IMG/VR virus record: IMGVR_UViG_3300025141_000036
Location: 32,001 to 96,000 of that record
Direction: 5' to 3' (one strand)
Origin: a virus
Length of the DNA stretch: 64,000 nt
This document shows, piece after piece, positions 3,789 to 28,737 of the stretch. Each line of letters starts with the position of its first letter. Positions within the stretch are counted from its first letter, which is position 1. Under the pieces are notes generated by a model, which had not been told where the DNA came from, ran no database searches, and saw only the letters and a list, made by a program, of their open reading frames with translations. Both the position numbers and the translations under genes were made by a program.

Positions 3789-5295
3789 TCTTTACCACTC
3801 GTAAATTATAAATAAATGGTTGTTCCTCATAAGTTAAAGTATCCGGATCATAAACCGAAAATGTTATCCCATATTGATAATTGGGTTGCAACATTGAACA
3901 GTTTAGATCAAAATAATTTCCAGAAACATCATAGGATAGGCGCGTTGCTTGATCAGAGCCCGTATTATAAGGAATGACAACTTTACTATCAGACACTCTA
4001 ACTACCTGATAAGAAGAACTTTCAAAAACTAGGCTATTTGGCACAGTTGTTGCTTTCGTATAGATGTTTGGGGACCAATTCTTCTCTCGGGCGTAAAGTC
4101 TTATTCTGTGGGTCTGATTATGATAATAACTCTGGTTTTTATTGCTTACGGCGAAAACATATTTAGGGGTGTAGGAATATTGCAGTGCTGCTGATCTTTT
4201 GATCGCGATAGAGCCTGTTGAAAATTGATTGGCTGAATCCCTGGCATCTGTTGCAGAATTGCTTCCGCTCCACCACACATCATAAACGGTTTCAATGGTG
4301 GACGAACCTGTATAGGCAAAAGAAGCAGAATAGATTCCTTTTGAAACCCAGCCGCCTGTTACTGCATATTGGTTCGCAGACCTCACATAGTCACTGTCGG
4401 CTACTAATTTTAAGGCTGGACCAGTCGGATCAGTTGACCCAGAAAATAAACTAACCATTATTCCACGCTCTGCTGTTCCAATAGAAGGAATGTTGGATAG
4501 TCGACCTCTAGCATAGTTATAAAGATAAATTGTATTTAAATTGTCTGGGCCTGAAACTAGGGATGAACTTAAGTAAAACGATCCACGATCATCTAGTTTT
4601 GCTGAATCCCATCGGGCTTCAATAACCGGCCTCTCAAACCAATTGTGCGAATTTCTTCCAAAGAACATCTTAGTGTAATAGGATCGATCCTGCTCGGCTA
4701 ATGAATCAGCAATGCGAATAACCACCCCATTGTTGGTTTCTTCACCGTCTACCCACTTATTAACAAGCGAAGTGATGTCTACCTCGAGGTTTTCATCGCC
4801 AACCGGGAACGCTGCGGAATATATAATAGATCCTGAGGCTCCGCCGGTCTTCGGGCTGGGGACAGTGCCCCATATTTGAGAACCCGAGCGCATAATCCAG
4901 TTAGAACCGCGAATGTCATAAGTCAAATCGGAGTAGTCGTTCATGTCTAGTCCGAGGCCCTCTTGCCACTCTTCAGTAACGTTCAGAATCTCTAAAGTAT
5001 AGTCACGCGGCAGGGTCTGTGAACTTTTACAATTATATAACTTTAAATAAAAGGAAGACCCAGATGAAATTGCGCCGGATGTCTTATCTGCTGCCACCTG
5101 AGTGCTATCAAATTGTAACAAAATATTGGCCTTTTCTCTTTGGAGACCTACTGAATTTGAGACCTGGCCATAAATTGTGAACACCTCTAAAATGTCAGAC
5201 TGGCCCATGTTGGACCCTGTTCCTCTGGTAGCCAAATCACTCTCATAAGCATTCGTTACTGTATTGTCCTTTGTGGCATAATATCTTTTTATCAT
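3778..5295 (-). CDS. Virion structural protein with DNRLRE/disaggregatase-like N-terminal domain
   Basis: 505 aa; ILLQFD..LKLY..VTEEWQEG..VDITSLVNKWVDG..NNGVVIR pattern; lies in the baseplate operon. Confidence 0.55.
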   Translation of the reverse strand: MIKRYYATKDNTVTNAYESDLATRGTGSNMGQSDILEVFTIYGQVSNSVGLQREKANILLQFDSTQVAADKTSGAISSGSSFYLKLYNCKSSQTLPRDYTLEILNVTEEWQEGLGLDMNDYSDLTYDIRGSNWIMRSGSQIWGTVPSPKTGGASGSIIYSAAFPVGDENLEVDITSLVNKWVDGEETNNGVVIRIADSLAEQDRSYYTKMFFGRNSHNWFERPVIEARWDSAKLDDRGSFYLSSSLVSGPDNLNTIYLYNYARGRLSNIPSIGTAERGIMVSLFSGSTDPTGPALKLVADSDYVRSANQYAVTGGWVSKGIYSASFAYTGSSTIETVYDVWWSGSNSATDARDSANQFSTGSIAIKRSAALQYSYTPKYVFAVSNKNQSYYHNQTHRIRLYAREKNWSPNIYTKATTVPNSLVFESSSYQVVRVSDSKVVIPYNTGSDQATRLSYDVSGNYFDLNCSMLQPNYQYGITFSVYDPDTLTYEEQPFIYNLRVVKNEH

Positions 5296-7091
5296 TTAAT
5301 TAAAGTCCCCTTTATATCACTATTCGGATATTTTAATTCCATAATTACATTTTTTGGAGTGTTGATATAAGTCCCATCTTTAGATAGCGCGTCGGCGAAA
5401 CTTATGCGGGTTGATGAATAGGGGCCACCAAATTTTTGATCAATGCTAACCTTTTTTACATCCGAGACTCCCTCAACTTTTCCTAACACACTGTAAAGGC
5501 GACTGATATAAACTGGTTCTCCAATGTATAATTGATTAGAATAATACTCTTTCAGTCTGGCTACGCACCTTCCAATAATATCAAATTGAGAATATCTATG
5601 GTCAACTGTTACCTTAAAATCTACACCAAAGTTTACGACCTTCGCATCATAAATATCTACAACATCATTAAGTGATTTATATTGCATAATCCATGTCTTA
5701 AGGTTGCTTTTTATCTTGGAGTTACAAGTAGTTAGTTTTCCATCTGAGTCTTCAGAAATAACATAAAGAGCCAATCTGCGGTTAGTTGCACTTGGGTCAT
5801 TCACTACACTTGCCCTCTTAACTGTTCCAAACTTCTTGGGCATGTTATAGATCATCGACTCATAATCTTGCCTTGTTACTGCTCTATTCTGAGAGGCATA
5901 AAAGGATTTTGCTCTTTGTTTTAGTTCTTCATTTGTCAATTGTTCTATGTCGCCCACTATAGGCTCTTCGTTCGTAACTTCCAATGAACCTAAGACATCA
6001 GCTTTACCAATTGAGGACAAAGTTTCTGTGTTATCAAACTCCATTTTGACACTCTGCACAGTTGTGATTGTGTTGACTGCCGCATTAATGTTTGCATTAT
6101 CATTTGACTTAACGATGATAGTTAAATTAGTACCTGACGGGGCCACTCCGAGCTTGTTAGTCTTTAGCAACTTTGATGGATCGAAAGACATTTTAGAAAT
6201 ACTTTTCTTCCCAAACATCTTAATAGCTACTTGAGAAGGGTCAGCTATTTCATCAACGCCGTCGTCTTCAGAGCCAAACCCAAATTGTAAATAGGTTCCC
6301 GTATCGTCTTGTTCTAAAACAAACCTACGAGATGCCACATAGGGTTTCATAATGCTCCTAACTCCATCGCTTAAGGCATCCTTGTTGGTGGTTTCCTGGA
6401 ATACTACCTCTTGAGATAAATTTTCCACTTCGTAATAATCATTTCCGTCGGAATCTTTAACTGAAATAATCTCTGAAATCAATGATCCTCCGACTCTAAC
6501 TTTCCTAAACTTCTTGAAAGTAGCGTTGGCCAAGTTCACATCTACACGCTGGTAAATCCCACTGACTACTTGTCCGAAGGCCTTCACTGCGAAGTATGTG
6601 GTTGCTCCCGTGCTTGGATTAAATCTAGCAGCAACAATTTCATTTTTGGGATCGGAGAATCTCACATCTTCTGTCAAAGTATAGGTACTTGATGCAGCTC
6701 CGAAAGAAGATCCCTGTTTTATGGTGGGCAGATAGGCAAAGTCAGGAGCTGTTCCATCACCATTAGCTGGTATTAAACAAAACATTGACACAATCCCATA
6801 AGCATTAGGGTTTCCTGCGAACTTATATCCCATGGCCCGTGCGTGTTTGCGAATATTATTAAATTCTAAAGCGGTGTCCAGGAAACTTTCATTAGCAGAG
6901 TAATCTACGTAATATGACAAAACATCTCCTACATAAGCGACTGTGTCTAACATTAAGGAGTTGATTGTTGATTTAGAAAAGTCCTTCCATTCTGCGGAAT
7001 AATATCTCTTTGCATGATTGAGCAAATCTCTTTTGATAGACTCATAATCTCTGCTGGTGTAATTAATGGGTGTTTTTTTTAATTTTGACAT
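5292..7091 (-). CDS. Baseplate wedge subunit (T4 gp6 / baseplate J-like)
   Basis: 599 aa; YTSRDYESIKRDL, ANESFLDTA, QNRAVTRQDY motifs. Confidence 0.85.
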   Translation of the reverse strand: MSKLKKTPINYTSRDYESIKRDLLNHAKRYYSAEWKDFSKSTINSLMLDTVAYVGDVLSYYVDYSANESFLDTALEFNNIRKHARAMGYKFAGNPNAYGIVSMFCLIPANGDGTAPDFAYLPTIKQGSSFGAASSTYTLTEDVRFSDPKNEIVAARFNPSTGATTYFAVKAFGQVVSGIYQRVDVNLANATFKKFRKVRVGGSLISEIISVKDSDGNDYYEVENLSQEVVFQETTNKDALSDGVRSIMKPYVASRRFVLEQDDTGTYLQFGFGSEDDGVDEIADPSQVAIKMFGKKSISKMSFDPSKLLKTNKLGVAPSGTNLTIIVKSNDNANINAAVNTITTVQSVKMEFDNTETLSSIGKADVLGSLEVTNEEPIVGDIEQLTNEELKQRAKSFYASQNRAVTRQDYESMIYNMPKKFGTVKRASVVNDPSATNRRLALYVISEDSDGKLTTCNSKIKSNLKTWIMQYKSLNDVVDIYDAKVVNFGVDFKVTVDHRYSQFDIIGRCVARLKEYYSNQLYIGEPVYISRLYSVLGKVEGVSDVKKVSIDQKFGGPYSSTRISFADALSKDGTYINTPKNVIMELKYPNSDIKGTLIK

Positions 7092-7133: not shown

Positions 7134-7505
7134 TTAAGGAGTCACATAAAGGTTCAAAACCTCAGAAAAGGCCGAATTTGAAATAGAATAGTTTATTGAC
7201 ACCCCCAGGGCATTTGAATCTATATTGTCCATTTCAAATTCAACACTATTAATGGTAATATAGGGCATGTATTCACCAACTTGGGAATAGATTCTAGACT
7301 CGACCTCATCATTCGGGAATTCGATATCCAAGGAGAATAGGTAATTTGGCAGACCTACACCAAAGTTACCACTCATTGCATACTCCCCGGGTCTAGTCAG
7401 TAATAAAAATTTAAAATTTTGTTTAATTGCCTCAGATTTTTGCTCATCTGTGAATGATGCAAACCCTGCGGTTCCCATTTGTATAGGTAAAATAGTTGAA
7501 ATCAT
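7134..7505 (-). CDS. Baseplate wedge subunit, gp25/GpW-like
   Basis: 123 aa; QNFKFLLLTRPGE..FGVGLPNYLF..YMPYITI pattern. Confidence 0.85.
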   Translation of the reverse strand: MISTILPIQMGTAGFASFTDEQKSEAIKQNFKFLLLTRPGEYAMSGNFGVGLPNYLFSLDIEFPNDEVESRIYSQVGEYMPYITINSVEFEMDNIDSNALGVSINYSISNSAFSEVLNLYVTP

Positions 7506-7516: not shown

Positions 7517-10500
7517 TTATCTGAACATTTTTTGGAAAGAATTAAGACAATCCTGGCCATCGGCATCAAACGGCTTTATGTCTACAAAGCGTATACGCTG
7601 CCACCATTGAACACTAGAGTCTAAATTCATAAAAGCTTGGGGGAGCAAATTCTTAAGAAATTCGCTTTTTTCTCTCTTTGATCGAGGTTCGTTCTCTTCT
7701 TTCTCGTCATCATCTGTGCGATAAGTAGCGTTGAAAAGTTGTCTTAGTTTTTTCTTTGTTTTATCAAACAGAGCTTTTTTCCATTGCTCTCTCAGTTTAC
7801 CCGGGTCTTCATCTACTTCGTCTGGGTTGCTAAGATCCATGCCTATAGATTCAAAGAACCCGTAAAATGAATAAACTCCATAAAACGAAACAAATGATCG
7901 GGCTGGAAAACATGTGTCAAAAAGAACCTTGAAATCTTCTTCTTTGGTTAAGTTGTCTATATAACACTTTAATTCTTCTCCCATGTTTTTGCCTTCGAGA
8001 TCTAAGTCTCCAACAGGCCTATCTTTAATGTCTTGCTCAAACTCAACTACAGGAATGGCTCTTGAGAGCGACTCTTGTTGCACAGTTATGCCGTCCAAGG
8101 ATTCTATTATTCTCTCCTTTAAGGCTGTGTTTCCTAGAAGAGTTTCCAACCACGCATGCACACTCTCGTCCACTTTCAAAGAAACTTCAGGGACTCCGAT
8201 CGTATACGTCCTTTCTTTCTGATTGTCTTCAGGTGCAGTGTAGTTAAATTGAGGAGGAGGACTATAAATAAGACGTACTCCAAACTTCACCCCTATGGTC
8301 CCCATAACTTCATCCTCTACTATATAAGCGTTGCCAAAAAACTCAGAGATATTTTTAGAGGGATCCAAAACCAAAGTTTCTAAAGAAAGATCTTCGGATT
8401 GTGTAATAGCCACTCCTGGTTCATACGCCTGCAACTTTGAGGCTATTAATTCTTGAAATTCCGGAATGCTTAAAACTCGTTCTTCACCATCTTTTGTATA
8501 TACTCTCACATATTTCTCAAGATAAAATAAACCATTTTGAAAAAGAGTAATCATATTGGAGACTTTTCTTTTTAAAAATTCAGGAATAGCGGCGGGAGGA
8601 GTTTCAAGAAGGCCCTCGGAAAAGTATGCCAATGCATCGTCGTGCTCAGCGGGGATGGCCAGATTGGCAGCGGTTACCGTAATCTCTTGATTATTAAAAG
8701 GGTTGTCTACTTCCACATCTCTTACTACATTAAAGATGTCACCATAATCGAAACCAGTTGAACCTTCGACGGCTGGTTGCTCTATTTTCATCTCTCCTGA
8801 TCTTAGAGAGGATCCGAAAAGAATGCCATTACGAGATAGTAAATATTTTTGTATGTCTTCTATATGAGGACGGGGCCGCATATTCAAATTAATTTTTTTC
8901 ATTAACAATGACAATTCATTTTTTGCCAACGCTCGTAAAATTACCTCTGCTGCTGCGCGAGATTCATGAAGCGAGTTTATTTTTCTTGCTAGTCTCAGTT
9001 TGAAAGGGCTTAGAAAAGCGCAGCGGGTCAGCAAAGTACCAACGAGATGGGCTTGGGCCGCTGTTATCGCGGCAGGGCCGCCTACAGCAAGCAACGCCAG
9101 ACTCTTTAGTAATTCTTCAGTAAGAACGTTATCATAATCTTGCTGCCAGTCTTCTCCGAACGCAATAATCGCTGCTCCTCGGAAGGTGTCACTTATTGAA
9201 TCCCAAGGCATATTCTCCCAATCAAAAATATTTATTTTTATAGGATCATAGTTTATTTGCGTCGTTTCGATAATCGTGAACGCGTTCTTTATCTCTTGAG
9301 TTTCTTCCATTAACCCATCTTGAATTTGACGTTGTACAACTTGAACTGCTTGCTCCAAGAACATCAAATAATAAGTATATCCCTGAACCATATTCCAGCT
9401 AGTTGTTTGTGCTGTCAGGCCATTTTTCATCTGTTGTATGATGAGATTTAAAAATGCATTATCCACGTTTTTGCTGGACAATTCTATTCCGCTATAAACG
9501 GGAAGAGTTTTAAATATGTATTCTGAACAATATACTCGCATAGTAGAGAGCACGACCCCTTCCATTATCCCATGGGTTGCTGATGAAAAATGCTTATCAT
9601 AAGGAACCTCTATTCTGCAGTCTGGTGCTAACGAGAGTCTCTCATCGAAAGGCAAATTATCTTCCACTTCTTTAGCTCTCTTGGCTATCTGAGTGATATT
9701 GAGAAACCCGTTGTCCTCTTTTTCACAAGACTTTAGCTCTGGTATAAAAGTCCTTATCATCCCTAGCCAGCCATTGTAGCTAGCTGGTTCTACATAAATT
9801 TTTGGGAACAAATAATTTCCACCATGAATCGAAGGATCCAAGAAATGTACTCTGGGATTTTCTGTTGCGCTTTTTCCTAAAACCCTGTCTCCGGGGAGAT
9901 GAGTATACACCCAAGACGACTTGTCGTCTGGGGATGCGTCGGGGTTAACATACCACAGATCTGCAAAAGTTAAAGGCTCTCCGCCTTCGTAGCCAAATCT
10001 AAATCCCGTTGGGATGTCTCCGCTTGGTGTTTGAATTACCGCATTCTGTACACACTGCAGGACCGTCTTGTTGCCTCGATCAAAAGCCTTCATCAAAACT
10101 GCTGGGTTTTGTTCGATAGTACCACTTATTTTAGATTCCAACAGTGATTTAAAGATCAAGGCCTGATATGGCAACTCCTCTTGGTTATCAACATAATTGA
10201 AATTTAAATACTTAGTGGCCTTAAAATCATTATTTACTTCTAAATCTAAAGAAACCATGGGTGGCAAAGATTTTTTCGAAAACAATCCGTAATCAAGACC
10301 TAATCTCTCAGCTTCTGCCTCTGTTATCTTATTTCTAAAGGTTTCCACCACCTCAAGCTGATAAGATGGCTTTGCTACTTTTCTTAATTTAAAGTTAAGT
10401 TGGAACTCGTATGAGGGAACAGATTCAAATGAATTAATAAATTGCTTGGATACTTGTGCTTGGGGAGTAGTGGATCTGTTCGAAAGGTAGCTCGTGTAAC

Positions 10501-13500
10501 TTTCCATCTGAGTTTTCATTAAAGACCCCACTGTCTTAGGGTAATTCCCTAAAGGTTTTGGCTCAGGGTTGAAGACCGGGATGGGCTCCATCCTTCCTGA
10601 AATTAAAATGTTACTATTTTCCTTCCGAAATTCCCAATCCGCTGGTGAGTTGGTATAGTTTGGAAAAAAGAATGGCGAGTCCGCTCTTCTTTCGTGTTTT
10701 TTGAGTCGAAAATTGTTTTTGTCTCTCAGGATATTGTTTAAAACTGCGTTTCTCCTACCAATTAATTCTCCCAGAAAGGATCTGTCTATGTTTTCAAACA
10801 TGCTTTTAATCATTTCCAACTTTGTTTGTCTCAAAGATTCGTCTTCAAAAAGGAGGGCGCTTTTGTCGTTAACGCACCCAGGATCCCTACTGGGGTCCAG
10901 CAAGGAGTCTACGGCGTCCCCTAGAATCCCATCGGTTCCTTTTTCTAAGTAATCCAATAAATCCCCTATATCTTCATCTCGCTTGCCGTTTGCTTGATCT
11001 ACTAGGTCTCTAGCAGTGGCTGGGTCAACACCAAGGTTTTCGTAGATATTTGCACGCTCTTCGTTCCAGGCGTCCAGCTCGGGTTGAGTTAAACAAACTG
11101 CATCATATAAAGGAGTCTCTTCATCTGTGAGGGCTTGGTCTCGCAGGGCTTGTCTCAATTCGGGCGGGATGTAGTTTCCTGCCTGGCCAAACACTTCTGC
11201 TACTTGGCTCGGGGTCCCGAAGACATCAGCCAGTTCAGGATGCACAGTGGCAACTAATTGTGATAAATCTGTTAAAACCTTCGCATTCATATTTTTGGGA
11301 GTGTTTGTCAACAATCCTACCAGGTCATTCTTAGACATTGTAGAGTTCATTGACTTATAAAGATCGTTATAGCTTTGGTCGGTAATGCCTGATCCTACAA
11401 TGCCCGATGCTTTGAAAATGTTTTTCTTTGTGTTATTGAGTTCATCTTCTGATGCGTCTGGGCAAAAAGCTTCTGCAAAAATAGAATCCAACCCTGCTGT
11501 TTTGCCCGAGGCTAAATCAGCTGCGGCCATGCCTACGGCATTCAACCCTTTACACAAAGCACTATCTATACCTTCTAGGACTTTTAAAATTAGACGCTTA
11601 ATAACTTCCGTAAGCAGTCCCTCTATTTTACCTGCGAATTGCTTTTTTAACACTAGCAGTGCTGATTTATCAAAAAAGCCAGGGATTTCCTTTATTTGAT
11701 CAGGAAAGCCGATTCCTATTCCGCCATCGCCGCAGACATCCAGAGTAAAGGTAGACAAGAAACTATCTATAGGGGGCTTAAACATTCCTTGATAAGCACA
11801 AGTGTAGTCTCCTACAAATTTATACAAAATGTCTGATCCTGGGAATCGATCTAATATTTGCATTAACTCATCTATTTCTACAATATCTAGTAAAAATTCT
11901 ATATAAGCATCTACCACTAGTTTTTGTATATTACCTAATGCTACACCATAAGTGCCCTGTTGCCCGCCGGGTGAATCTTTGCCAAGTTCATTTTTGGTGA
12001 TTTGCCGCCGTTCCTTATCTGTTAATTTTGACCACTCTTCCGATAGGCTTTTTCGTGTTGCCGAGGCAGATCTGCCAATATAACTATTTCCTGCTTTTGC
12101 TTGTTGTTTGCGTCCCCAATCTCTAATCGCCATGGCGCCGGGTGACAATTCATAGCCAGACTGCTCTTGTTGTTCATATCGAGCATCTATAAGAGCTTGA
12201 GTGTCAGCCATCATTTGCTCTTGCTCTCGGCGATATGCCTCGGCTTTGGCTGCAGCTTCTTCTTGGGCTGCTTGGGCTGCAGCTGCCATAACTTCTCTTT
12301 GTTTCTTTCTTTCTTCTTCTATAACAGCCTTGTCCCATTCTTCTAGAGCTGCTTGAGTTAAAGGAATCAGTTTTTTAATCTCTTCAACTGTTTTGTCTCT
12401 TCGCATTAATTTAGTACGACTGGCGTTTTCTACCAGATAGGCTTGGGTGTTATTATACCACTTTACATAGTTATCGTAATGAAGGAGATTGTCATCTCTA
12501 GGAAAATCCATGTGAAAATCATAAACACCTTTAAAATCCTTAAACGCCTGGGTAGTAACCCTTGCGTCCCAGTATAAAGTAATAAATTCATACCACGCTT
12601 CTTTGACTGGGGTTCCTGATGAATATCCTTTATTCTTTCTCCTTTGAATATAGGCTTTCCAAGATTTATCAGCATCTTTTAAATGTTGTTCTGTTGGGCG
12701 TTTAATGGGATCGGGCGCAGGGGGTGTAGCTACAATCTCTTCTTCAGAGATTCCTGTATAGCCTGGTAGTTCCATATCTGGTTCTTCCGGGGTTTCTTCT
12801 ATTTCTGGTTTTGGAACTTCCGGGGGCAATTCTTTTAAATATTGAATGTATAAATTAGTGTTCTCTATTGAACCGGGGTCATAATCTTGCTCCCATGGGA
12901 GAGGGAGATTGCCAAATTCCTGCTCGAAAGCTTTTCTGAGTTCTATTTGTTTCTGTGGTGGCAAGTTGTTAATGAAAATTCCAAAAACATCAAGATCCAT
13001 AGCTTCTAAGGATGCTTTTACTATTTTTGTCAGCGCATCATCTACAGTTACACCCGAAAATAAGCATCTAACTGATTGGATTGTTAAAGTCTTTAAATTA
13101 CAAACTGACATTCTTTTTATCAATTTTACTAAATCAAGTTCTTTCATATTCTTGAAATTTAGTCCCCCCTTTTTCAAATAAGTCGCCTTGTCCACGATAG
13201 ACTCCAAAAGAGTGTCTTGTTGTGCAAACTCTTCTAGAGCTGCCTCATATCCAATTCTCCAATAAGGATCCTCTTTGGGTTTTTTGCTTTTATTGTGTTG
13301 CTGTCGAACATATTTAGATGCGGCTCTAGAGTATTGCCTTTCTTTATTGTTTGTCTGTCGGTCTGTTTTTTTTATTTTCTTTTGAATCTCTTTAATTTTT
13401 TCTTGATTCTCTTGAATCCCTTTCATCCAACCTGCAAGTTCCGTGGGGCTTGTCCATTTTTGTTGAAAATCAGGATCATAAACAGATTTTAAGCTATTAA

Positions 13501-15142
13501 ACCTATCAATCTTTTGTTGCAGTATAATAATTTCGGATTCTAGGGCTCTTACTTTCTTCCATAAACGTTCTTTTTCTACTCGCGCTTCTTCGATTGCTAT
13601 ATCCCGGGCTTCCTTCTTAGCTTGTTTAACTGAGTCTTTCTTCTTTTTTCTTTCTGATTCTGGGATTTTTACTTCGTGTTCTTGATCCAGATCACCGAAG
13701 TCAGTGCACGAATTCTTATTAAATTCGTATTGAATAAAATCGGAGACAGACAGGGACTCGTTTAAAATGTAATCTCGCAACTCCACAGCATGATTTTTTA
13801 TGTTTTCTGATACACACTGCAGTCCTTCTTCTTCTAGGGATTTCTCCGAAAATCTCCCGTAATCAACGGAAAGCAATGGATAGGTAAATTTTATTAAAAA
13901 ATCCATCCAGGGATAAGATTTGCGGGATCTCAGAGATACATCTATCTCATTTAATTTAGCTATGTAGTTCCAAACCGTTGCGTCAAAAGGTGACGGGCTA
14001 CCAGAAAGCTTAGACATTCCTTGCGTCCACTCTTCATATGGGCAACCTTTCTTTTTAGACTCGATTTTAAGAACCTTGTAGGGCTTGTCAGTGTCGGAGT
14101 TATCAAAGGTGATTTTCACCAACCTCGCATTGTTTTTAATTACACTCGGTATATTCGATCGAATATTCCACCCATTGTCTAAGCCTACATCTTTCAACGT
14201 CGTGTAAAGAGTGCCAATTCTTTCACTATATGTTGAGGCATAAAAACTAATTTTACTCTCTTCAATCGGAACATATAAATAGCCCTTCTGAACCTGTAAA
14301 AAGGCAGACTGATATTGAGAGTAAACCCACATTGCTGATTTCAATCTTTGAATTTGTGCCCATAACTTATCGGTTGTTAAGACAACCTCTGATTTTAAGT
14401 TTACTGCTTCTTTTTCTATTTTATCTCTGGTTGGATTATCTGGGACTTTTTCTAAAATAAAAGACGGAATAGCTATCAAAACTTTTAATAACCCACCTTC
14501 ACCCTCTACTAAAGTCCACTCCTTAGGATAAGCATAGATTTCCAAGGCTAATGGATTTTTGATTTGTGGCAATTTTGCTGATGCGCCTATTAAATTTTGA
14601 GTAAACTCCGAAGGATCCTCGGGGTTTAAAAAGGGAGAAGTAGGCAAGTCAATGTCTCGGCATGCGTTGACTCTATCTTCTGCTGCCATCACGGGGTCAA
14701 GAGCCAATGCAGCATATGCATCCTCATAATCCTCATAGGTAGTTATGATTTCGGCAGGGAGCATATCCAAAGCTGGACCAGTGTGATAGGCACAAATGAT
14801 CTGGTCCGCAATGAGCTTGCCATATTCCTCCAACATTAGTCTAATTCCGGCTTCGACATAGCTTCTTAATAGCTTTCTCTTCTGGGTTCGACTCTCTGCG
14901 GTTTCGCCACTTGGGAACATGTTAGTTGGGCTAACCACATAAGAATCACCAAATTTGTTTAAGGTTACACACACCATAAATTCGCAAGTTTTTTCATTAT
15001 AAAATGGCTCGGCAACCATCTGAGTCCAATTTGGAACAATATAGTTGGGGTTGGGCTTACATGCAGGACAAATCCTCTTTAAAGGCTCTCTTTCCGGTGG
15101 CTCGCACACATTTTTTTGAAATTCACTAAAATTTTCTGCCAT
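7517..15142 (-). CDS. Very large (2541 aa) putative virion structural protein, function unknown
   Basis: Uninterrupted ORF between spike-like and gp25-like genes; N-terminal CPAC motif, charged coiled-coil segments. Confidence 0.6.
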   Translation of the reverse strand: MAENFSEFQKNVCEPPEREPLKRICPACKPNPNYIVPNWTQMVAEPFYNEKTCEFMVCVTLNKFGDSYVVSPTNMFPSGETAESRTQKRKLLRSYVEAGIRLMLEEYGKLIADQIICAYHTGPALDMLPAEIITTYEDYEDAYAALALDPVMAAEDRVNACRDIDLPTSPFLNPEDPSEFTQNLIGASAKLPQIKNPLALEIYAYPKEWTLVEGEGGLLKVLIAIPSFILEKVPDNPTRDKIEKEAVNLKSEVVLTTDKLWAQIQRLKSAMWVYSQYQSAFLQVQKGYLYVPIEESKISFYASTYSERIGTLYTTLKDVGLDNGWNIRSNIPSVIKNNARLVKITFDNSDTDKPYKVLKIESKKKGCPYEEWTQGMSKLSGSPSPFDATVWNYIAKLNEIDVSLRSRKSYPWMDFLIKFTYPLLSVDYGRFSEKSLEEEGLQCVSENIKNHAVELRDYILNESLSVSDFIQYEFNKNSCTDFGDLDQEHEVKIPESERKKKKDSVKQAKKEARDIAIEEARVEKERLWKKVRALESEIIILQQKIDRFNSLKSVYDPDFQQKWTSPTELAGWMKGIQENQEKIKEIQKKIKKTDRQTNNKERQYSRAASKYVRQQHNKSKKPKEDPYWRIGYEAALEEFAQQDTLLESIVDKATYLKKGGLNFKNMKELDLVKLIKRMSVCNLKTLTIQSVRCLFSGVTVDDALTKIVKASLEAMDLDVFGIFINNLPPQKQIELRKAFEQEFGNLPLPWEQDYDPGSIENTNLYIQYLKELPPEVPKPEIEETPEEPDMELPGYTGISEEEIVATPPAPDPIKRPTEQHLKDADKSWKAYIQRRKNKGYSSGTPVKEAWYEFITLYWDARVTTQAFKDFKGVYDFHMDFPRDDNLLHYDNYVKWYNNTQAYLVENASRTKLMRRDKTVEEIKKLIPLTQAALEEWDKAVIEEERKKQREVMAAAAQAAQEEAAAKAEAYRREQEQMMADTQALIDARYEQQEQSGYELSPGAMAIRDWGRKQQAKAGNSYIGRSASATRKSLSEEWSKLTDKERRQITKNELGKDSPGGQQGTYGVALGNIQKLVVDAYIEFLLDIVEIDELMQILDRFPGSDILYKFVGDYTCAYQGMFKPPIDSFLSTFTLDVCGDGGIGIGFPDQIKEIPGFFDKSALLVLKKQFAGKIEGLLTEVIKRLILKVLEGIDSALCKGLNAVGMAAADLASGKTAGLDSIFAEAFCPDASEDELNNTKKNIFKASGIVGSGITDQSYNDLYKSMNSTMSKNDLVGLLTNTPKNMNAKVLTDLSQLVATVHPELADVFGTPSQVAEVFGQAGNYIPPELRQALRDQALTDEETPLYDAVCLTQPELDAWNEERANIYENLGVDPATARDLVDQANGKRDEDIGDLLDYLEKGTDGILGDAVDSLLDPSRDPGCVNDKSALLFEDESLRQTKLEMIKSMFENIDRSFLGELIGRRNAVLNNILRDKNNFRLKKHERRADSPFFFPNYTNSPADWEFRKENSNILISGRMEPIPVFNPEPKPLGNYPKTVGSLMKTQMESYTSYLSNRSTTPQAQVSKQFINSFESVPSYEFQLNFKLRKVAKPSYQLEVVETFRNKITEAEAERLGLDYGLFSKKSLPPMVSLDLEVNNDFKATKYLNFNYVDNQEELPYQALIFKSLLESKISGTIEQNPAVLMKAFDRGNKTVLQCVQNAVIQTPSGDIPTGFRFGYEGGEPLTFADLWYVNPDASPDDKSSWVYTHLPGDRVLGKSATENPRVHFLDPSIHGGNYLFPKIYVEPASYNGWLGMIRTFIPELKSCEKEDNGFLNITQIAKRAKEVEDNLPFDERLSLAPDCRIEVPYDKHFSSATHGIMEGVVLSTMRVYCSEYIFKTLPVYSGIELSSKNVDNAFLNLIIQQMKNGLTAQTTSWNMVQGYTYYLMFLEQAVQVVQRQIQDGLMEETQEIKNAFTIIETTQINYDPIKINIFDWENMPWDSISDTFRGAAIIAFGEDWQQDYDNVLTEELLKSLALLAVGGPAAITAAQAHLVGTLLTRCAFLSPFKLRLARKINSLHESRAAAEVILRALAKNELSLLMKKINLNMRPRPHIEDIQKYLLSRNGILFGSSLRSGEMKIEQPAVEGSTGFDYGDIFNVVRDVEVDNPFNNQEITVTAANLAIPAEHDDALAYFSEGLLETPPAAIPEFLKRKVSNMITLFQNGLFYLEKYVRVYTKDGEERVLSIPEFQELIASKLQAYEPGVAITQSEDLSLETLVLDPSKNISEFFGNAYIVEDEVMGTIGVKFGVRLIYSPPPQFNYTAPEDNQKERTYTIGVPEVSLKVDESVHAWLETLLGNTALKERIIESLDGITVQQESLSRAIPVVEFEQDIKDRPVGDLDLEGKNMGEELKCYIDNLTKEEDFKVLFDTCFPARSFVSFYGVYSFYGFFESIGMDLSNPDEVDEDPGKLREQWKKALFDKTKKKLRQLFNATYRTDDDEKEENEPRSKREKSEFLKNLLPQAFMNLDSSVQWWQRIRFVDIKPFDADGQDCLNSFQKMFR

Positions 15143-15144: not shown

Positions 15145-16173
15145 TTACATTCCTATATAAACTGTTGAACTCAACAGTCTTTCTGTTTTGGAGCCCTGTA
15201 GGACTCCGTTCTCTGTACCTAAAGCCTTGAAGGTTTTCATGTGCTGTTGATACGTCTTAATAATAGAGTCCACATTCGTTTCTAAAAAAGCCGGGATGCT
15301 CTTGGCTGCTTGAGTAGCAGCATTTACAGAAGGGATGGTCTGGACAACACCCAGGCCGAAGCCAGTATGGGTATGAAGAGCCATTGCTGTTTTGTATTTG
15401 ACAAGATTAAACTCAACATCCATAACCCGGTTTCTTAACGTTTGAATCTCCTCGTTTAATGATCTCAAATATTTAACTAAATTATCTCCTAGAACTGCTG
15501 GTTGTGCGCTATCGTCTCCAATTTGGGCGATTTCAATACGAGGAGTTATATTCTTGTTGTAGTTAACAAGCCTTTCTACACCTTCGGCTTTTGAAAACCC
15601 TACTAAAATTCTGACTCGTTCGCGGCCTATAATCAAAGTGTGATCAGCTTTTATCCCTATTCCCGATTTCATAGTGGAAGTAATTGAGGTAGCGGGGGAT
15701 CCATCTCCTACTGCGAAGTAATGTTGAATATCTCCCCTCTCTGTTAAATAAATTCTCGCGCCGTCTGAAATAAAGTTGGCTCTGGTTTCTGTTGAAGAGG
15801 TTTTTATTCTAGCTTCACAACTAAGAGCCCCAGCAACAATGTCTATAGCTTCACACATAGTTCCACCTTGGCCTCCAACACCAGTTGCTCTAGAACCATA
15901 ATTATCCTTGGTAAAAACAATTCGGCCGCCTTGGTTTTTTGAACCTTCTTCCACCCGGGATAACACTCTTTCGATTGCACCTTTGGGTCCAAAAACTGGT
16001 AAATCCTCACAATCTTCCGTTAAAAAAACTCCGGACTTTTGAGGCATAAATGGAGAATTTATCTCCCGATCTATACACTCTTCTATCAATCGACGGTCAT
16101 CCTTAAGAGCTGTGTACGCGCCAACTAATTTTACTTTTTTAGGTCCGCCTTTTTGCAAAGGATTAAAAGCCAT
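15145..16173 (-). CDS. Baseplate spike/puncturing protein (gp5 C-terminal / gpV-gp138-like)
   Basis: Probable ATG 16173 after GGAGGAG SD; beta-rich mid region (SGIGIKADHTLIIGRERVRI), PAVLGDNL and late HxH motif (ALHTHTG) typical of metal-tipped spikes. Confidence 0.6.
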   Translation of the reverse strand: MAFNPLQKGGPKKVKLVGAYTALKDDRRLIEECIDREINSPFMPQKSGVFLTEDCEDLPVFGPKGAIERVLSRVEEGSKNQGGRIVFTKDNYGSRATGVGGQGGTMCEAIDIVAGALSCEARIKTSSTETRANFISDGARIYLTERGDIQHYFAVGDGSPATSITSTMKSGIGIKADHTLIIGRERVRILVGFSKAEGVERLVNYNKNITPRIEIAQIGDDSAQPAVLGDNLVKYLRSLNEEIQTLRNRVMDVEFNLVKYKTAMALHTHTGFGLGVVQTIPSVNAATQAAKSIPAFLETNVDSIIKTYQQHMKTFKALGTENGVLQGSKTERLLSSTVYIGM

Positions 16174-16174
16174 T

Positions 16175-17329
16175 TTATGTTTCTCCTCCACCAACATCTT
16201 GTGGTGATTTTTTAATGATCCCTTTGAGGTCTATCCATTCGAAATGCCATGGTTCATCGGGACCTTTCGCTCCTTCTAAAGCCCACGGTGGGTTATGAAA
16301 ACCAAATCTTGGAGCATGCTCTTTCATCCATTTGTAAGTAGCCGATCGGTATCTTTTGGATCCATATACTTTTTTACCTTTGAGGTTGCAAACTTTCCAG
16401 TCAATGGCCAAACCCCATCCGTGTCGGGATCTGCCTGGGGTGGCTGCATATTCTGAAGTTCCAGCTTTTATGTTTCTTATTTTAGTGGAAACTTGCCTGT
16501 CGTAACTTCTGACTCCACTCGCAGTTCCTGCTATGGAAATTTGAAATCCGAAATGTGCATTGAATGCATCTTCTATCTGGTTCCAACTAGGGATTATGTC
16601 TTTCACAACTATTGTTCCTTGATTAGTCACACCCAATAATTCTTGTGGAAATGAGCCATTATAAACTGGCTTATTGTGCCAACCGGAGACGTTGCCTACA
16701 TAATATCTCTTCAGAGGCGCAGGAAACCCAGAGTGTCCCGTAGTTCTAACGGAATCGGATCCGTTTGGTGCATTCGGAATGTTTGAGAGATCCGGGGTCC
16801 CTGAGTTGTAAAATTGCCCCATAGTTTCTTGATCCCAACTGTTTGCAAACGTTTGGAATAGACTATCCTTTTCTCTAAGGTTCAAAAATTTCTTAGAGAG
16901 GCCCACTCTTTGCATTAAGACTATGGAATTTTTCTTTCCTTCTGAATGGTATCTAGCAGACCAGATTTCCCCTTCTTGAGGGCTCCTTCCAGCCTCTTGC
17001 ATTACAAATCCAATTGGGTGCATATTTATTAATTTCTTTGTCATTTGAACATCGGGTTCACTAAAAGGATCGGGGAATTCTAAATCATCGTTGATATAAC
17101 TCCTCACTCTACTAAAGAAATACGCAGGCTCTTGAGGATTATTAGTAGCTGGGTTTCCATGAGCAGATCCTCGAAATGGATTACTGCTTTTTTCTCCAGA
17201 CAAAACCACCACTTGAAATATCTTTGGTTCTTTTCTTTGATTATGTTTTACCACCGCATGTTGCAAGTTTTGGCGATGTAGGTTGATTTTTTCAACTGCA
17301 CCCATAAGAATAGCAGGAACTTCTATCAT
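16175..17329 (-). CDS. gp5-OB-like N-terminus + M15/VanY-type Zn peptidoglycan peptidase
   Basis: 384 aa; RSYDRQ..AATPGRSRHGWGLAID..EPWHF (SxHxxGxAxD, ExWH); N-terminal ~165 aa shared with two neighbours. Confidence 0.8.
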   Translation of the reverse strand: MIEVPAILMGAVEKINLHRQNLQHAVVKHNQRKEPKIFQVVVLSGEKSSNPFRGSAHGNPATNNPQEPAYFFSRVRSYINDDLEFPDPFSEPDVQMTKKLINMHPIGFVMQEAGRSPQEGEIWSARYHSEGKKNSIVLMQRVGLSKKFLNLREKDSLFQTFANSWDQETMGQFYNSGTPDLSNIPNAPNGSDSVRTTGHSGFPAPLKRYYVGNVSGWHNKPVYNGSFPQELLGVTNQGTIVVKDIIPSWNQIEDAFNAHFGFQISIAGTASGVRSYDRQVSTKIRNIKAGTSEYAATPGRSRHGWGLAIDWKVCNLKGKKVYGSKRYRSATYKWMKEHAPRFGFHNPPWALEGAKGPDEPWHFEWIDLKGIIKKSPQDVGGGET

Positions 17330-17334
17330 TTTCT

Positions 17335-18666
17335 TTACCCCTTGGCTAAATCACGTATTGCTATAGCACGTGGGCTTTTATCGATTGCAGCCCTGACTTG
17401 ATTAATGGCATTCATTGATCTGTCGGCGTCTGCTTTATTTACAGCCCCTTGCTTGTTAACACCAACACCACCATAATATTTAACATAAGCAGGGATCCAC
17501 TTTCCTTTTCTATATGCCCCTTTTTGTAATCTTATTGATGCAAACTCATAAGCCAAATCGTTTCCGGCTGACTTTGGGCTTACGCTGTCTCCAAATAAAT
17601 AGCGGCCGAGTGTTTTTCTCTTCATCGAAACCAAGTAAATGCCTAAAGCATTTTGATTTAATTTATTAAATTGATCACCTGTGTTCAAACCCTGGATTCT
17701 ACTGACAGCACTTTTGAAAGTTTTGGGAATTATCTGGTAGCCTCCGGTGGCAAAAAGACGTCCATTTCCTGCTGTTATGACTTTTGCGCCTTTTGATTGT
17801 CCAGCTCTGACTTGAGCAATTGACCATTGTGATAATGGTCCCCAGCCAGTTCCAATGTAATTAGTGTTGCCTATATAACCAGGCTTTCCATATCGGGAAT
17901 AGTAATTAAAAGCATCGTACTGTTCACCATTAAAGTGTTTGGTTGCACAACCTTCTCTAGAGCACTCGTGTTGTCTTATGTTGTTTAACAGTGGTTCAAA
18001 GATCCCCATACCTGCTAGTTCTTTTAATTGAGCCCACGTGAAGTTTAAACGACCTTTGATTTTTGTCCCTTGAGAGACTCTTACATTTACAACTGGTTCT
18101 GTGATCTCACCATTGGGCCCTACTTGTGCAACATCGCCGATGATGACAGGGCTATGCCTGAGATTTTCCCAAACATTTGCTGCTTGTTGGTATAAACTAT
18201 CCTTCTCTTTAAGATTTAAGAACCCTTTATCTACCCCCACTCTATTAATAAGAATTATCCCTTTTCTATCTTTTGTTAAATAACGACAAGTCCAGATATC
18301 CCCTTCTTTGGGGACAAGGCCCGTTGATTTCTCCAAGACACCGATCGGGTGCATATTAGCCAACTTCTTTGTCATCTTCACATCTGGTTCTTTAAACGGA
18401 TCCGGCGTGGTTAATTCATCTATATCTTTTCTTCTTATTCTCGCGAAATAATATGAAGGCTCTTGAGGGTTATTAGTAGCGAGATTACCATGGGCAGTGC
18501 CTACGTGAGGGTTATTAGAATTAGTTTCACCGCCTGATAAAACCACCGCTTCGAAGATTTCAGGTAACACATTAGAGAATGTTTTACTTATAAAACCGAA
18601 TTCTCTTTCTCTTTTGAGAGAAATGCGATTTAAAGCAGTCATAATGTTGGCGGGGACATCTATCAT
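17335..18666 (-). CDS. gp5-OB-like N-terminus + lysozyme-like (GH104/lambda R-type) domain
   Basis: 443 aa; LLNNIRQHE..YDAFN..ATGGYQIIPKT..FNKLNQNAL..LAYEFASI. Confidence 0.7.
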   Translation of the reverse strand: MIDVPANIMTALNRISLKREREFGFISKTFSNVLPEIFEAVVLSGGETNSNNPHVGTAHGNLATNNPQEPSYYFARIRRKDIDELTTPDPFKEPDVKMTKKLANMHPIGVLEKSTGLVPKEGDIWTCRYLTKDRKGIILINRVGVDKGFLNLKEKDSLYQQAANVWENLRHSPVIIGDVAQVGPNGEITEPVVNVRVSQGTKIKGRLNFTWAQLKELAGMGIFEPLLNNIRQHECSREGCATKHFNGEQYDAFNYYSRYGKPGYIGNTNYIGTGWGPLSQWSIAQVRAGQSKGAKVITAGNGRLFATGGYQIIPKTFKSAVSRIQGLNTGDQFNKLNQNALGIYLVSMKRKTLGRYLFGDSVSPKSAGNDLAYEFASIRLQKGAYRKGKWIPAYVKYYGGVGVNKQGAVNKADADRSMNAINQVRAAIDKSPRAIAIRDLAKG

Positions 18667-19910
18667 GATGGAAAAACCCTATCGACTGCGTCTGCTCTTT
18701 TTTTGCGGTGGCTTGGATCATGACTATTATTAACATAATCAGCTAAAGATTCGTTTGGAGTTCTTTTACCGTTTGAAGAGTGCTTATCTACACCCCCAGA
18801 GCCTGCTGAGTTTCTGATTCCTGCTATTATTGCAAGATTTCTATTAGTTTTAGGCCAACCATAGCCTGCTAGTTGTGCTTCGGATGTATCTGCATATTTT
18901 CTTTTCCATACCGCTCTCTGTATGTCTCTGGTTTTGGGGTGTTGAACAAAACTTTCCCAACCTTTTCTCCACCAAGGGTGTTTATAATAACAAGGGTTTC
19001 CTTTTGACTTCTTTGTACAAGTCTTGTTGAAAGCCTTAAGTGCGGAAGAAGATTTGCCGAACCAAGTTACAATGATCTCCTCCCCTAGCAGCTCAACTGC
19101 TTTATCCACTAGCGGATTCAAAGTTTCTCGCTGCCAGTGGGCTATACCTATAATGCCTCTACCATCTACAGGGCAAACCTCATCATACCGTTTTCCCCAT
19201 TTACACTTTTTGTCTCCTTTTATACCAGCGTCCAGTGCAATAATAGATTCTAAAGTAATAATCCACCAGTCTGGAGTGTATTGTCCCGGGGCCGTCGGCT
19301 TTGATTGGTAATAGACAACATTAGGGTTTGTGGGACCTTTATTTTTTGGGGCTTGATATTGTTGCTGGGGCTGTTGATAACCTGAACCTATCAATTGTGG
19401 TTGATTGCTGGACCATTCTGCTGCGGATGTTTGATACATGCTGTCTTTTGTGGTCAAAGATAAAAACCCCTTATCAACATCTACTCTGTTAATCAAAAGA
19501 ATAGTGGCCTTATCGGGCCCCAGAAACCTACAACTCCATATATCTCCCTCCTTGGGGATTACATTCGCTTTATTATTCAATAAAACTCCCAGAGTGTGCA
19601 TCACAGCTAGCTGTTGTGCCATTTGTTTGTTGGATTCTAGGAACGGGTCTGGTTTATTTTCTTGTAATGCTGCCACCTTGCGACACCTAACAAAATGATA
19701 GTTTTGTTCCTGGGGATTATTATTCGCGGGATTACCATAGGCAGTGCCGATATTAACATTATTGCTTTTAAAACTAGCAGCAACCACAACAGCATTAAAA
19801 ATTTCCCCTTCTTTGTTGTAATAATCTCTGGCTATCGTTTCGAAACTTTGTTCATTAGTCAAAGAGATTCTATCTAGCATCGAATGGATTGAAGCTGGAA
19901 CCTCGATCAT
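18663..19910 (-). CDS. gp5-OB-like N-terminus + divergent lysozyme/chitosanase-like (VgrG3-C-like) domain
   Basis: 415 aa; YDEVCPVDGRGIIGIAHWQ..WESFVQHPKTRDIQRAVWKRKY..NSAGSGG pattern. Confidence 0.55.
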   Translation of the reverse strand: MIEVPASIHSMLDRISLTNEQSFETIARDYYNKEGEIFNAVVVAASFKSNNVNIGTAYGNPANNNPQEQNYHFVRCRKVAALQENKPDPFLESNKQMAQQLAVMHTLGVLLNNKANVIPKEGDIWSCRFLGPDKATILLINRVDVDKGFLSLTTKDSMYQTSAAEWSSNQPQLIGSGYQQPQQQYQAPKNKGPTNPNVVYYQSKPTAPGQYTPDWWIITLESIIALDAGIKGDKKCKWGKRYDEVCPVDGRGIIGIAHWQRETLNPLVDKAVELLGEEIIVTWFGKSSSALKAFNKTCTKKSKGNPCYYKHPWWRKGWESFVQHPKTRDIQRAVWKRKYADTSEAQLAGYGWPKTNRNLAIIAGIRNSAGSGGVDKHSSNGKRTPNESLADYVNNSHDPSHRKKRADAVDRVFPS

Positions 19911-20197
19911 TTTTCATCTTCCTCTGATTTTTGAATTTGGTCGAAAATTTGTGCGAAATCTTTTTCCGATAGCTCATCTGATGATTCTTGCTTGGTCATT
20001 AGGCCACAAAGCTTAACCAATTGTTCGTTCGACCGCTGTAATGTTTCTACATATTTTGCTAGTGTCATTCCAATAGTTTGATGTCTTGCGTCGTCAACAG
20101 CAAGCCACTTAATGGCATCATCGAGCAATTCTCTCGTTATTTCCCTATCATCTTCAAGGTTTTTAATAGCTTTTTCAATGTGTTTTTTACTTTTCAT
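19907..20197 (-). CDS. Hypothetical helical protein (96 aa)
   Basis: Coupled ORF; CTAATTA motif just upstream. Confidence 0.6.
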   Translation of the reverse strand: MKSKKHIEKAIKNLEDDREITRELLDDAIKWLAVDDARHQTIGMTLAKYVETLQRSNEQLVKLCGLMTKQESSDELSEKDFAQIFDQIQKSEEDEK

Positions 20198-20216
20198 ATA
20201 AATAATTAGATTTTAT

Positions 20217-20909
20217 TCAAATTTTCCCGTCATCCCAGTCTTTTTTAAAGTCCTTATATCTACTTCTCATTTTATTAAGATGTGTCACAACCTGTTTAGT
20301 GTTCATCCCAGTAAGCTCCCGTAAATAAAGATAGATGGCTTTTTTATTGAAAATTTCAATGTCGTCTACTGACGATAAAATTATTTTTACCGCTTCGTAA
20401 ACTTTTTTCTCACCTTCTTTTTCGTAATCAACCTCCCAGGAATTAATCTCACCCCATAGGTTTTCCCAAAACTCTTTTGTCGATCTTTCTTGATAATAAT
20501 GATCTCCGGGATCAACAAAAGAAGTCTCCAGTTCTAATTCTGCATTTTCATATGGTACTTCTCTTTGGAGTCTTTTTGTGTTCTTTTTTACTTTATGTAT
20601 AAACCAATTTTTAGTTATCACACTAAAATAAGAAAAAGCCTTTGATCCACGATTTGGATCATATTTGTCTAAAATGGTGGTGAGCCAAACTTTGCACTCC
20701 ATCCTAAGTTCATCAATGTTTGGCAAGTTTGTAAACTTATAGGAAAATACAATCTTATCAACCATCTGATTAAACGCTGGTTGTATCCATTTTATGTATA
20801 GCTGTTCTTTTTCTGCATGATCATCGCTGTTGCAAAAATCAAGAATTGCCTGTTCGTGTTCCTGCGTAAAATACATTTTGCTCTTTGCTTTCTTCTTCAC
20901 TTTTCTCAT
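20217..20909 (-). CDS. Phage sigma factor (T4 gp55-like late sigma)
   Basis: 230 aa; KYDPNRGSKAFSYFSVITKNWF resembles sigma region 2 of gp55 (xxDPxxxxxxFAYFTxIxxN). Confidence 0.7.
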   Translation of the reverse strand: MRKVKKKAKSKMYFTQEHEQAILDFCNSDDHAEKEQLYIKWIQPAFNQMVDKIVFSYKFTNLPNIDELRMECKVWLTTILDKYDPNRGSKAFSYFSVITKNWFIHKVKKNTKRLQREVPYENAELELETSFVDPGDHYYQERSTKEFWENLWGEINSWEVDYEKEGEKKVYEAVKIILSSVDDIEIFNKKAIYLYLRELTGMNTKQVVTHLNKMRSRYKDFKKDWDDGKI

Positions 20910-23361: not shown

Positions 23362-23380
23362 ATTTCACCTCTGGTTAAAA

Positions 23381-28683: not shown

Positions 28684-28701
28684 TTAATTCTCGTTTTATA
28701 T

Positions 28702-28730: not shown

Positions 28731-28737
28731 AAAAAAA

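What the first reader, a model, noticed from the sequence alone, without database searches (positions are those of the whole stretch)
16175..19910. Three tandem gp5-like paralogues: one shared OB-like head, three different cell-wall hydrolases (possible heterotrimeric multi-enzyme spike)
Seen in sequence: the three proteins align over ~165 N-terminal aa (MI(E/D)VPA..IF..VV..GxAxGN.A.NNPQE..R.R..PDPF..MH..G..P.EG(D/E)IW..RV...K.FL.L..KDS), with a DNA-level echo (ggctcttgagg.ttattagtagc near 17127 and 18458). They then diverge into an M15 Zn-peptidase, a GH104/lambda-R-like lysozyme, and a VgrG3-C/chitosanase-like domain. They sit directly upstream of an HxH-containing spike-like gene. Established: T4 gp5 is a homotrimer of OB-fold, lysozyme and beta-helix, and T6SS VgrGs carry swappable C-terminal effectors. 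Inference: the gp5 functions are split here, and exactly three interchangeable heads could form a heterotrimer attacking both peptide cross-links and glycan. Alternatively they give a mix of virions with different enzymes.
Basis: partly seen in the sequence, partly recalled or inferred. Interest (0 to 1): 0.8.

Follow-up and report, generated by a model that had tools for sequence, protein, structure and literature searches.

The report
Three tail lysins sharing one spike-type head
An uncultured marine myovirus carries three neighbouring genes that join the same gp5-like docking head to three unrelated cell-wall-cutting enzymes, but its relatives manage with one such gene, so the trio is a recent expansion of a swappable tail-enzyme module, not a machine that needs three parts.

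Summary
Three adjacent minus-strand genes (384, 443 and 415 aa) share an N-terminal module of about 168 aa (40-53% identity), then carry C-terminal domains that are unrelated at profile level.

Only paralogue A has a firm enzyme assignment: VanY/M15, with intact zinc motifs. B and C are probably lysozyme-like, but GH104 and VgrG3-C could not be confirmed.

The genes sit in a tightly coupled baseplate operon: sigma-like, 96 aa, C, B, A, a conserved 342-aa HxH protein, a giant protein, gp25, gp6.

Copy number argues against a structural need for three. All 18 IMG/VR relatives with full upstream context have one head-enzyme gene at this position, one metagenomic relative has two, and this phage has three. 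Across the family the head is joined to at least 21 C-terminal classes. In some genomes the heads are 86-89% identical while the enzymes are unrelated.

Best reading: a modular virion-borne lysin, tandemly expanded in this lineage. Mixed loading of the spike site is possible. An obligate 1:1:1 heterotrimer is unlikely. This is a new variant of a known kind.

The parts
18663..19910 (-). Paralogue C, 415 aa: spike-type head (res 1-~168), then a Q/P/G-rich linker, then an unassigned C-terminal domain that is probably lysozyme-like
   Evidence: ORF. Head alignment. No Pfam, NCBIfam or PDB sequence match. Atlas lead to the SLT/Destabilase/Phage_lysozyme2 clan at 0.88. The same C-domain is seen in P0008 and P0027.
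17335..18666 (-). Paralogue B, 443 aa: spike-type head plus a C-terminal domain of a type also found in baseplate-hub-region proteins of T4-like cyanophages
   Evidence: ORF. AF2 model of the head. tblastn matches of res 265-431 to S-CAM7 gp010 'GPD' and Syn19_014. phrog_37890 and phrog_30077. A relative with the same domain also touches phrog_90 'endolysin' at 4.3e-5.
16175..17329 (-). Paralogue A, 384 aa: spike-type head plus a VanY/M15 zinc peptidase domain (res ~260-368)
   Evidence: PF02557 VanY 4.5e-14, 52.8 bits against a cut-off of 25. LdcB/VanXY models match weakly. Zn motifs SRHGWGLAID (301-310) and EPWH (359-362) are present. The M15 part also matches a tape-measure PHROG.
18163..18666 (-). 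Head module of B (res 1-168): helix 6-31 plus a five-stranded OB barrel. The equivalent stretches are 16826-17329 in A and 19407-19910 in C.
15145..16173 (-). Conserved 342-aa protein with an invariant HxH (H267, H269; window 15367-15375) after a coiled-coil helix. Candidate central spike or needle.
   Evidence: More than 208 homologues, always directly after the head-enzyme gene. Atlas leads DUF2345 and Gp5_C at 0.82-0.84. hhalign to the Flavobacterium phage immuto 378-aa family: E 4e-4, Prob 35%, collinear. That family's only PDB profile hit is a VgrG beta-helix. The AF2 model was poor.
7517..15142 (-). Giant 2541-aa protein, conserved (2163-2577 aa) directly after the 342-aa gene in all relatives. 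Function unknown.
   Evidence: No Pfam, PHROG or NCBIfam match.
19907..20197 (-). Conserved ~96-aa gene directly upstream. Its TGA overlaps the ATG of paralogue C.
20217..20909 (-). gp55-like late sigma factor homologue that heads the conserved block
   Evidence: phrog_234 late sigma transcription factor, 5.6e-5. Conserved position in relatives.
7134..7505 (-). gp25/GPW baseplate wedge protein
   Evidence: PF04965 2.8e-9. phrog_261.
5292..7091 (-). gp6/gpJ-like baseplate wedge protein
   Evidence: phrog_6 5.8e-24. 29-32% identity to the baseplate wedge proteins of phages immuto and Mel-JY01.

Best explanation
The three genes encode virion-borne (baseplate or tail-tip) cell-wall hydrolases. Each has a docking head and an enzyme. 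The head is an N-terminal helix followed by a gp5-type OB barrel, the same first two modules that central spike proteins of contractile tails use to sit in the hub and contact the tape measure. A flexible linker joins it to one enzyme domain. This repeats the OB-linker-enzyme order of T4 gp5, but without the beta-helix on the same chain. The ancestral and usual state in this phage lineage is one such gene just before a conserved 342-aa HxH protein, which probably supplies the needle. In the sub-lineage of this window the gene was duplicated in tandem to two and then three copies, and the enzyme part was exchanged by recombination at the linker. The virion can therefore carry a peptide-cutting M15 enzyme and two other, probably glycan-cutting, domains. 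Because the heads are variants of one module, the three proteins most likely compete for the same three-fold docking site. Occupancy would then be mixed, with hetero- and homo-trimers, not a fixed 1:1:1. Shown here: the shared head, its fold match, the VanY domain, the operon context, the copy-number pattern and the domain shuffling. Inferred: presence in the virion, the docking site, the activity of B and C, and occupancy.
Confidence: 0.6

Rival explanations
1. Obligate ordered heterotrimer. One A, one B and one C assemble into a single three-enzyme spike complex in every virion, with head-head contacts that have become specific for the neighbouring paralogue, as in the heterotrimeric PCNA of Sulfolobus.
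For: There are exactly three copies. The heads have diverged to 40-53% identity, which leaves room for specialised interfaces. The genes are translationally coupled, which favours equal synthesis. VgrG heterotrimers with different effector domains are an accepted model in T6SS (PMC10433429).
Against: All 18 relatives with full context, and the same operon, run on a single gene. One relative has two. The site therefore accepts homotrimers, and three is not required. In the two-copy genomes the heads are 86-89% identical, the opposite of interface specialisation. A three-fold symmetric site gives no obvious way to enforce 1:1:1.
Confidence: 0.12
2. Alternative homotrimers. Each virion carries a spike complex with one enzyme type only, so a burst holds three kinds of virion. 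This would hedge bets against hosts with different wall chemistry.
For: Single-copy relatives must form homo-oligomers. Diverged heads could favour self-association.
Against: Nothing in the sequence shows self-preference. If the heads dock as monomers on a preformed three-fold site, mixing is the default. The heads lack the intertwined beta-helix that forces co-folding of three chains in gp5.
Confidence: 0.2
3. The proteins are not at the spike site. The OB head anchors them somewhere else, for example on the giant 2541-aa protein or inside the tail tube as ejected proteins, while the 342-aa protein alone forms a complete gpV-like spike.
For: hhalign aligns the 342-aa family along nearly the whole length of the immuto 378-aa protein (7-300 against 14-373, E 4e-4). 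By eye, that protein's N-terminus looks like a gpV-type OB barrel, and its family touches a VgrG beta-helix. The head family shows no similarity to it. The cultured relatives immuto and Mel-JY01 have no detectable head-enzyme gene.
Against: The N-terminal region of the 342-aa protein before its conserved beta-rich core is short (~75 residues, partly helical), which is little for a full OB barrel. The best fold matches of the head are spike OB domains specifically. Adjacency of the two genes is invariant.
Confidence: 0.15
4. They are endolysins, or lysis-phase enzymes, that act from within at the end of infection and are absent from virions.
For: No other canonical lysin family (Phage_lysozyme, Amidase_2, M15_4) was found elsewhere in the 112-kb contig. 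A single-copy relative's C-domain matches PHROGs annotated as endolysin.
Against: The genes sit inside a tightly coupled baseplate operon, not next to a holin. A 168-aa spike-type head has no known role in an endolysin. There is no signal peptide or SAR-like start. The contig is only ~62% complete, so the true endolysin may lie off it.
Confidence: 0.08

Closest known systems
Bacteriophage T4 gp5 (baseplate central spike and tail lysozyme; PDB 1K28)
   Different: There is no beta-helix on the same chain, and no Gp5_OB or Gp5_C sequence match. An extra N-terminal helix is present. The enzyme is not a GH24 lysozyme: it is M15 or one of two unassigned domains. There are three paralogous genes, where T4 has one.
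Central spike proteins of simpler myophages and contractile injection systems (A-1(L) gp25, P2 gpV, Mu gp45, phage P1 baseplate chain 9vzk_q)
   Different: Those proteins continue into a beta-prism or beta-helix needle and carry no enzyme. Here the needle part is missing from the chain, and an enzyme takes its place.
Specialised (evolved) VgrG proteins of type VI secretion, e.g. the Vibrio cholerae VgrG1/2/3 set
   Different: VgrG also contains the gp27-like hub and the beta-helix in the same chain. The proteins here have only helix+OB. This is a phage virion, not a secretion system, and the paralogues are in tandem in one operon.
Enzyme-bearing hub and spike proteins of other myophages (A-1(L) hub gp15 with lysozyme, endoglucanase and peptidase domains; Staphylococcus phage 812 hub 'cleaver' CHAP domain and spike 'petal' domain)
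   Same: Several different wall-degrading activities are mounted at the tail tip.
   Different: Those phages put several enzyme domains in one polypeptide, or on the hub and the spike. This phage spreads them over three paralogous genes that share one docking head.

Membership tests
T4 gp5-like central spike / tail lysozyme | N-terminal OB-fold domain structurally equivalent to gp5 residues 1-129 | tested here: met
T4 gp5-like central spike / tail lysozyme | Sequence membership in Pfam Gp5_OB (PF06714) | tested here: not met
   No match in the whole 112-kb record at E <= 1. No Pfam hit on the heads at E <= 0.1.
T4 gp5-like central spike / tail lysozyme | Peptidoglycan hydrolase domain after the OB domain, joined by a linker | tested here: met
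   Met for A: VanY 52.8 bits and Zn motifs. For B and C there are only leads. Across the family: SLT, GH19, M23, Muramidase, Phage_lysozyme2.
T4 gp5-like central spike / tail lysozyme | C-terminal triple-stranded beta-helix on the same polypeptide | tested here: not met
   The proteins end with the enzyme domain at 384-443 aa. No Gp5_C, Phage_base_V or DUF2345 match. A candidate needle is a separate gene, 15145-16173.
T4 gp5-like central spike / tail lysozyme | Trimer seated in a gp27-like hub of the baseplate | not testable with these tools
   No multimer modelling or proteomics was available, and no gp27-like hub was identified in the contig.
Peptidase M15 / VanY (paralogue A) | Pfam VanY match above the gathering score, with the zinc-binding H, D, H motifs | tested here: met
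   PF02557 4.5e-14, 52.8 bits against 25, res 269-366. SRHGWGLAID 301-310 and EPWH 359-362. The motif definition comes from my own knowledge of LAS/M15 enzymes.
   No Pfam or NCBIfam hit. An 8-sequence profile finds no lysozyme in the PDB at E <= 1. The C-domain of the AF2 model has pLDDT ~30. Short motifs (a GGYQIIP-like stretch) recall GH23/GH104, but only from memory.
   No Pfam, NCBIfam or PDB profile hit. Atlas feature search gives only lysozyme-like clan leads (SLT, Destabilase, Phage_lysozyme2) at 0.88.
Specialised VgrG (T6SS) | gp27-like hub domains plus an OB domain plus a beta-helix in one chain, encoded with T6SS genes | tested here: not met
   Only the helix+OB part is present. The context is a phage baseplate operon. 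It works like a VgrG set but is not a member.
Phage endolysin | Lysis-cassette context (holin, spanin), with no virion-docking domain | tested here: not met
   The genes are embedded between a sigma-like gene and baseplate genes with overlapping or near-abutting reading frames. A 168-aa spike-type head is present. Absence from the virion was not tested.

The most novel reading that the evidence does not exclude
Individual virions of this phage carry two or three different wall-degrading enzymes on one three-fold spike site. Paralogous gp5-type heads co-assemble, in order or at random. This would be a phage counterpart of mixed VgrG trimers, and a natural case of gp5 split into separate 'head-enzyme' and 'needle' genes.
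Probability: 0.4. Interest if true: 0.75.

Novelty: new variant of a known kind. Interest (0 to 1): 0.55.

Why it matters
Tail-tip enzymes decide whether a contractile phage can cross a given cell wall. This lineage has a compact, portable docking head (helix plus gp5-type OB, about 168 aa) that nature has joined to more than twenty kinds of enzyme. At least one sub-lineage stacks several versions in tandem. If the heads share one site, this is a simple natural system for loading different enzymes onto one spike. It would help in understanding host-range evolution in abundant marine myoviruses, and serve as a template for modular tail-lysin design in laboratory phages. It also offers a test of whether the gp5 plan can work with the enzyme-bearing head and the needle on separate genes.

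Tried and rejected
Neighbourhoods were obtained through the search for related loci instead.
2. N-domain patterns found no relative in IMG/VR. Relatives were reached through the 342-aa protein.
3. blastn and tblastn of the region, the head and the 342-aa protein against 50,697 phage records gave no match.
4. phmmer and profile searches of B, C and the 342-aa family against PDB sequences gave only chance or coiled-coil hits.
5. The AF2 model of the 342-aa protein had mean pLDDT 49.5. Its VIA scan returned only helical-hairpin look-alikes, which I judged uninformative.
6. Foldseek on the paralogue B model had no hit at E <= 0.001; only OB folds appeared weakly.
7. Pfam on 37 members of the 342-aa family found nothing meaningful.
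8. hhalign of the head profile against neighbouring proteins of phages immuto and Mel-JY01 found no similarity.
9. The T4 late-promoter motif TATAAATA has no minus-strand copy near the operon, and its count is not above chance.
10. PAAR, Gp5_OB, Phage_base_V, Phage_lysozyme and Amidase_2 have no match in the contig. The contig is ~62% complete, so absence means little.
11. No RNA holder was listed among public runs, so nothing can be said about expression.
12. dN/dS between paralogues was not attempted, because synonymous sites look saturated.
Full report
**What is there.** The window is part of a 112,401-bp IMG/VR virus record that CheckV rates about 62% complete. All genes in the region lie on the minus strand. 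In the direction of transcription the order is as follows:
- a gp55-like late sigma homologue (20217-20909; phrog_234, 5.6e-5)
- a 96-aa gene (19907-20197)
- paralogue C (18663-19910, 415 aa)
- paralogue B (17335-18666, 443 aa)
- paralogue A (16175-17329, 384 aa)
- a 342-aa protein (15145-16173)
- a 2541-aa protein (7517-15142)
- gp25 (PF04965)
- a gp6-like wedge protein (phrog_6)

The junctions are tight:
- 96 aa to C: ATGA overlap
- C to B: ATGA overlap
- B to A: 5 nt
- A to the 342-aa gene: 1 nt, with GGAGGAG upstream of the ATG at 16173

Logan contigs from two runs cover 15145-20200 without a single difference; both runs may be the source sample. Pieces occur in two other studies. The arrangement is therefore not an assembly artefact.

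**Check of the observation.** The three proteins share about 168 N-terminal residues with 57 invariant columns. Pairwise identity over this stretch is 40-53%. After a low-complexity linker they have nothing in common: hhalign between C-terminal profiles gives E 0.07-0.9. The DNA echo at 17127 and 18458 is exact apart from one base. It encodes the most conserved peptide, and elsewhere the DNA has drifted. This is an old duplication under purifying selection, not a recent repeat.

**What the head is.** An AF2 model of B, built with a 13-sequence alignment, gives pLDDT of about 70-80 for residues 35-170. It shows a helix at 6-31 followed by five strands.
- Foldseek returns only OB folds, and only weakly.

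**What the enzymes are.**
- **Paralogue A** is a VanY/M15 peptidase: 52.8 bits against a cut-off of 25, weak LdcB/VanXY matches, and both zinc motifs present.
- **Paralogue B** has a C-domain with no curated family. It resembles a domain inside baseplate-hub-region proteins of T4-like cyanophages: S-CAM7 gp010 'GPD', and Syn19_014 next to gp26 and gp51. A relative with the same domain touches phrog_90 'endolysin'.
- **Paralogue C** has no hit anywhere except Atlas leads to the lysozyme-like clan at 0.88.

'Probably glycan-cutting' is as far as the evidence goes.

**The family and its history.** An exhaustive profile search finds 54 representative clusters with this head, all metagenomic. Their C-termini fall into at least 21 unrelated classes. 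The classes include VanY (9 members), DUF2272, M23, SLT, GH19, M15_3/4 and a GDSL lipase, plus Muramidase and Phage_lysozyme2 in further relatives.

The 342-aa protein is far better conserved than the head: more than 208 homologues, with HxH invariant. I used it to fetch 22 IMG/VR loci. In every locus the order is ~87 aa, ~126 aa, ~235 aa sigma-like, ~96 aa, head-enzyme, ~337 aa, giant protein of 2163-2577 aa. All 18 loci with complete upstream context have exactly one head-enzyme gene. A metagenomic relative, L005, has two (VanY plus an unassigned domain). L004 has at least two. Pairs on single contigs were also seen in the protein search.

In the head tree the multi-copy genomes form one well-supported clade (98% SH-aLRT), set apart from the four single-copy relatives included. 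Heads do not group by enzyme type. In L005 and in contig 22488 the two heads are 86% and 89% identical while the C-domains are unrelated. Together these results show a single ancestral gene, tandem duplication in one sub-lineage, and exchange of the enzyme part at the linker.

**The neighbour.** The 342-aa protein has a beta-rich core, a long helix, the invariant HxH and a second helix. The evidence that it is the needle is weak but points one way:
- Atlas neighbours with names are DUF2345 and Gp5_C, at 0.82-0.84.
- hhalign aligns it collinearly with the 378-aa protein that sits in the same region of the operon in Flavobacterium phage immuto (E 4e-4, Prob 35%).
- That family's only PDB profile hit is a VgrG beta-helix (8gra_I, E 0.036).

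The AF2 monomer model was poor, and its fold search was uninformative. I could not decide whether this protein has its own OB domain. That point separates 'split gp5' from 'complete spike plus accessory lysins'.

**How it most likely works.**
- Shown: head-plus-enzyme proteins are encoded with the baseplate genes; there is one per genome in most relatives and three here; the enzymes are modular.
- Inferred: three heads dock at the three-fold hub-spike-tape-measure junction, as spike N-termini do. On contraction the enzymes are delivered to the peptidoglycan, as with gp5*. With three paralogues the site is filled by whichever heads are available, which gives mixed trimers.

An obligate ABC trimer is unlikely because one gene suffices in relatives, and because near-identical heads in two-copy genomes argue for a shared site, not specialised interfaces. 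Exclusive homotrimers, docking elsewhere, and an endolysin role remain open, in decreasing order of likelihood.

**Comparison and novelty.** The nearest known things are T4 gp5 (same OB-linker-enzyme order; the helix is missing here), simple gpV-type spikes (same helix+OB start; they carry no enzyme), specialised VgrG sets (same logic of one core with different effectors), and multi-enzyme hubs such as A-1(L) gp15 and the hub of phage 812. I found no description of tandem gp5-type paralogues with swapped enzymes in a phage, but the library is not exhaustive. I rate this a new variant of a known kind. The nearest cultured phages, immuto and Mel-JY01, share 46% (immuto) and 45% (Mel-JY01) TerL identity and 29-32% gp6 identity, and they lack a detectable copy of the head.

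Noticed in passing
window 7517-15142 (-): A 2541-aa protein with no match in Pfam, PHROGs or NCBIfam. It is conserved in size (2163-2577 aa) and position, directly after the 342-aa HxH protein and before gp25, in all 22 related loci. The cultured relatives immuto and Mel-JY01 have only proteins of 139-371 aa in the corresponding region. It may be a giant hub, tape-measure or ejected protein.
   Followed up: partly
window 15145-16173 (-): The 342-aa protein family is very well conserved (45-73% identity across marine metagenomes). It has an invariant HxH after a coiled-coil helix and no curated family. The ORF list gives a start at 16197, but the true start is 16173.
   Followed up: partly
window 19907-21675 (-); L012-L033: A conserved block of small genes (~87, ~126, ~235 sigma-like and ~96 aa) always precedes the head-enzyme gene. 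The ~235-aa protein is a distant gp55-type late sigma factor. A regulator at the head of a baseplate operon is unusual.
   Followed up: no
window 3778-5295 (-): The 505-aa protein after gp6 carries a DNRLRE domain (NF033679, 2.3e-7). The following 1262-aa protein has a Laminin_G_3 domain. These are probably distal baseplate or fibre proteins.
   Followed up: no
L034 (S-CAM7 gp010) and L035 (Syn19_014): The unassigned C-domain of paralogue B recurs inside large proteins next to gp26 and gp51 in T4-like cyanophages, annotated variously as 'late control gene D' and 'endolysin'. It looks like an uncharacterised tail-associated wall hydrolase family.
   Followed up: partly
L007 14695-17982 (-), L008 3076-4038 (-): Upstream of the window, several structural-looking proteins of 312-390 aa have no PHROG match. 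Two of them share a similar N-terminal motif (L.D.GR.LLA.G-like), which suggests paralogous tail or sheath-region proteins.
   Followed up: no
window 21665-36791 (-): A long run of sugar-nucleotide and glycosyltransferase genes follows the sigma-like block: an epimerase, a UDP-sugar dehydrogenase-like gene and two GT genes with phrog_2170. Other readers of this scan noted it as well.
   Followed up: no
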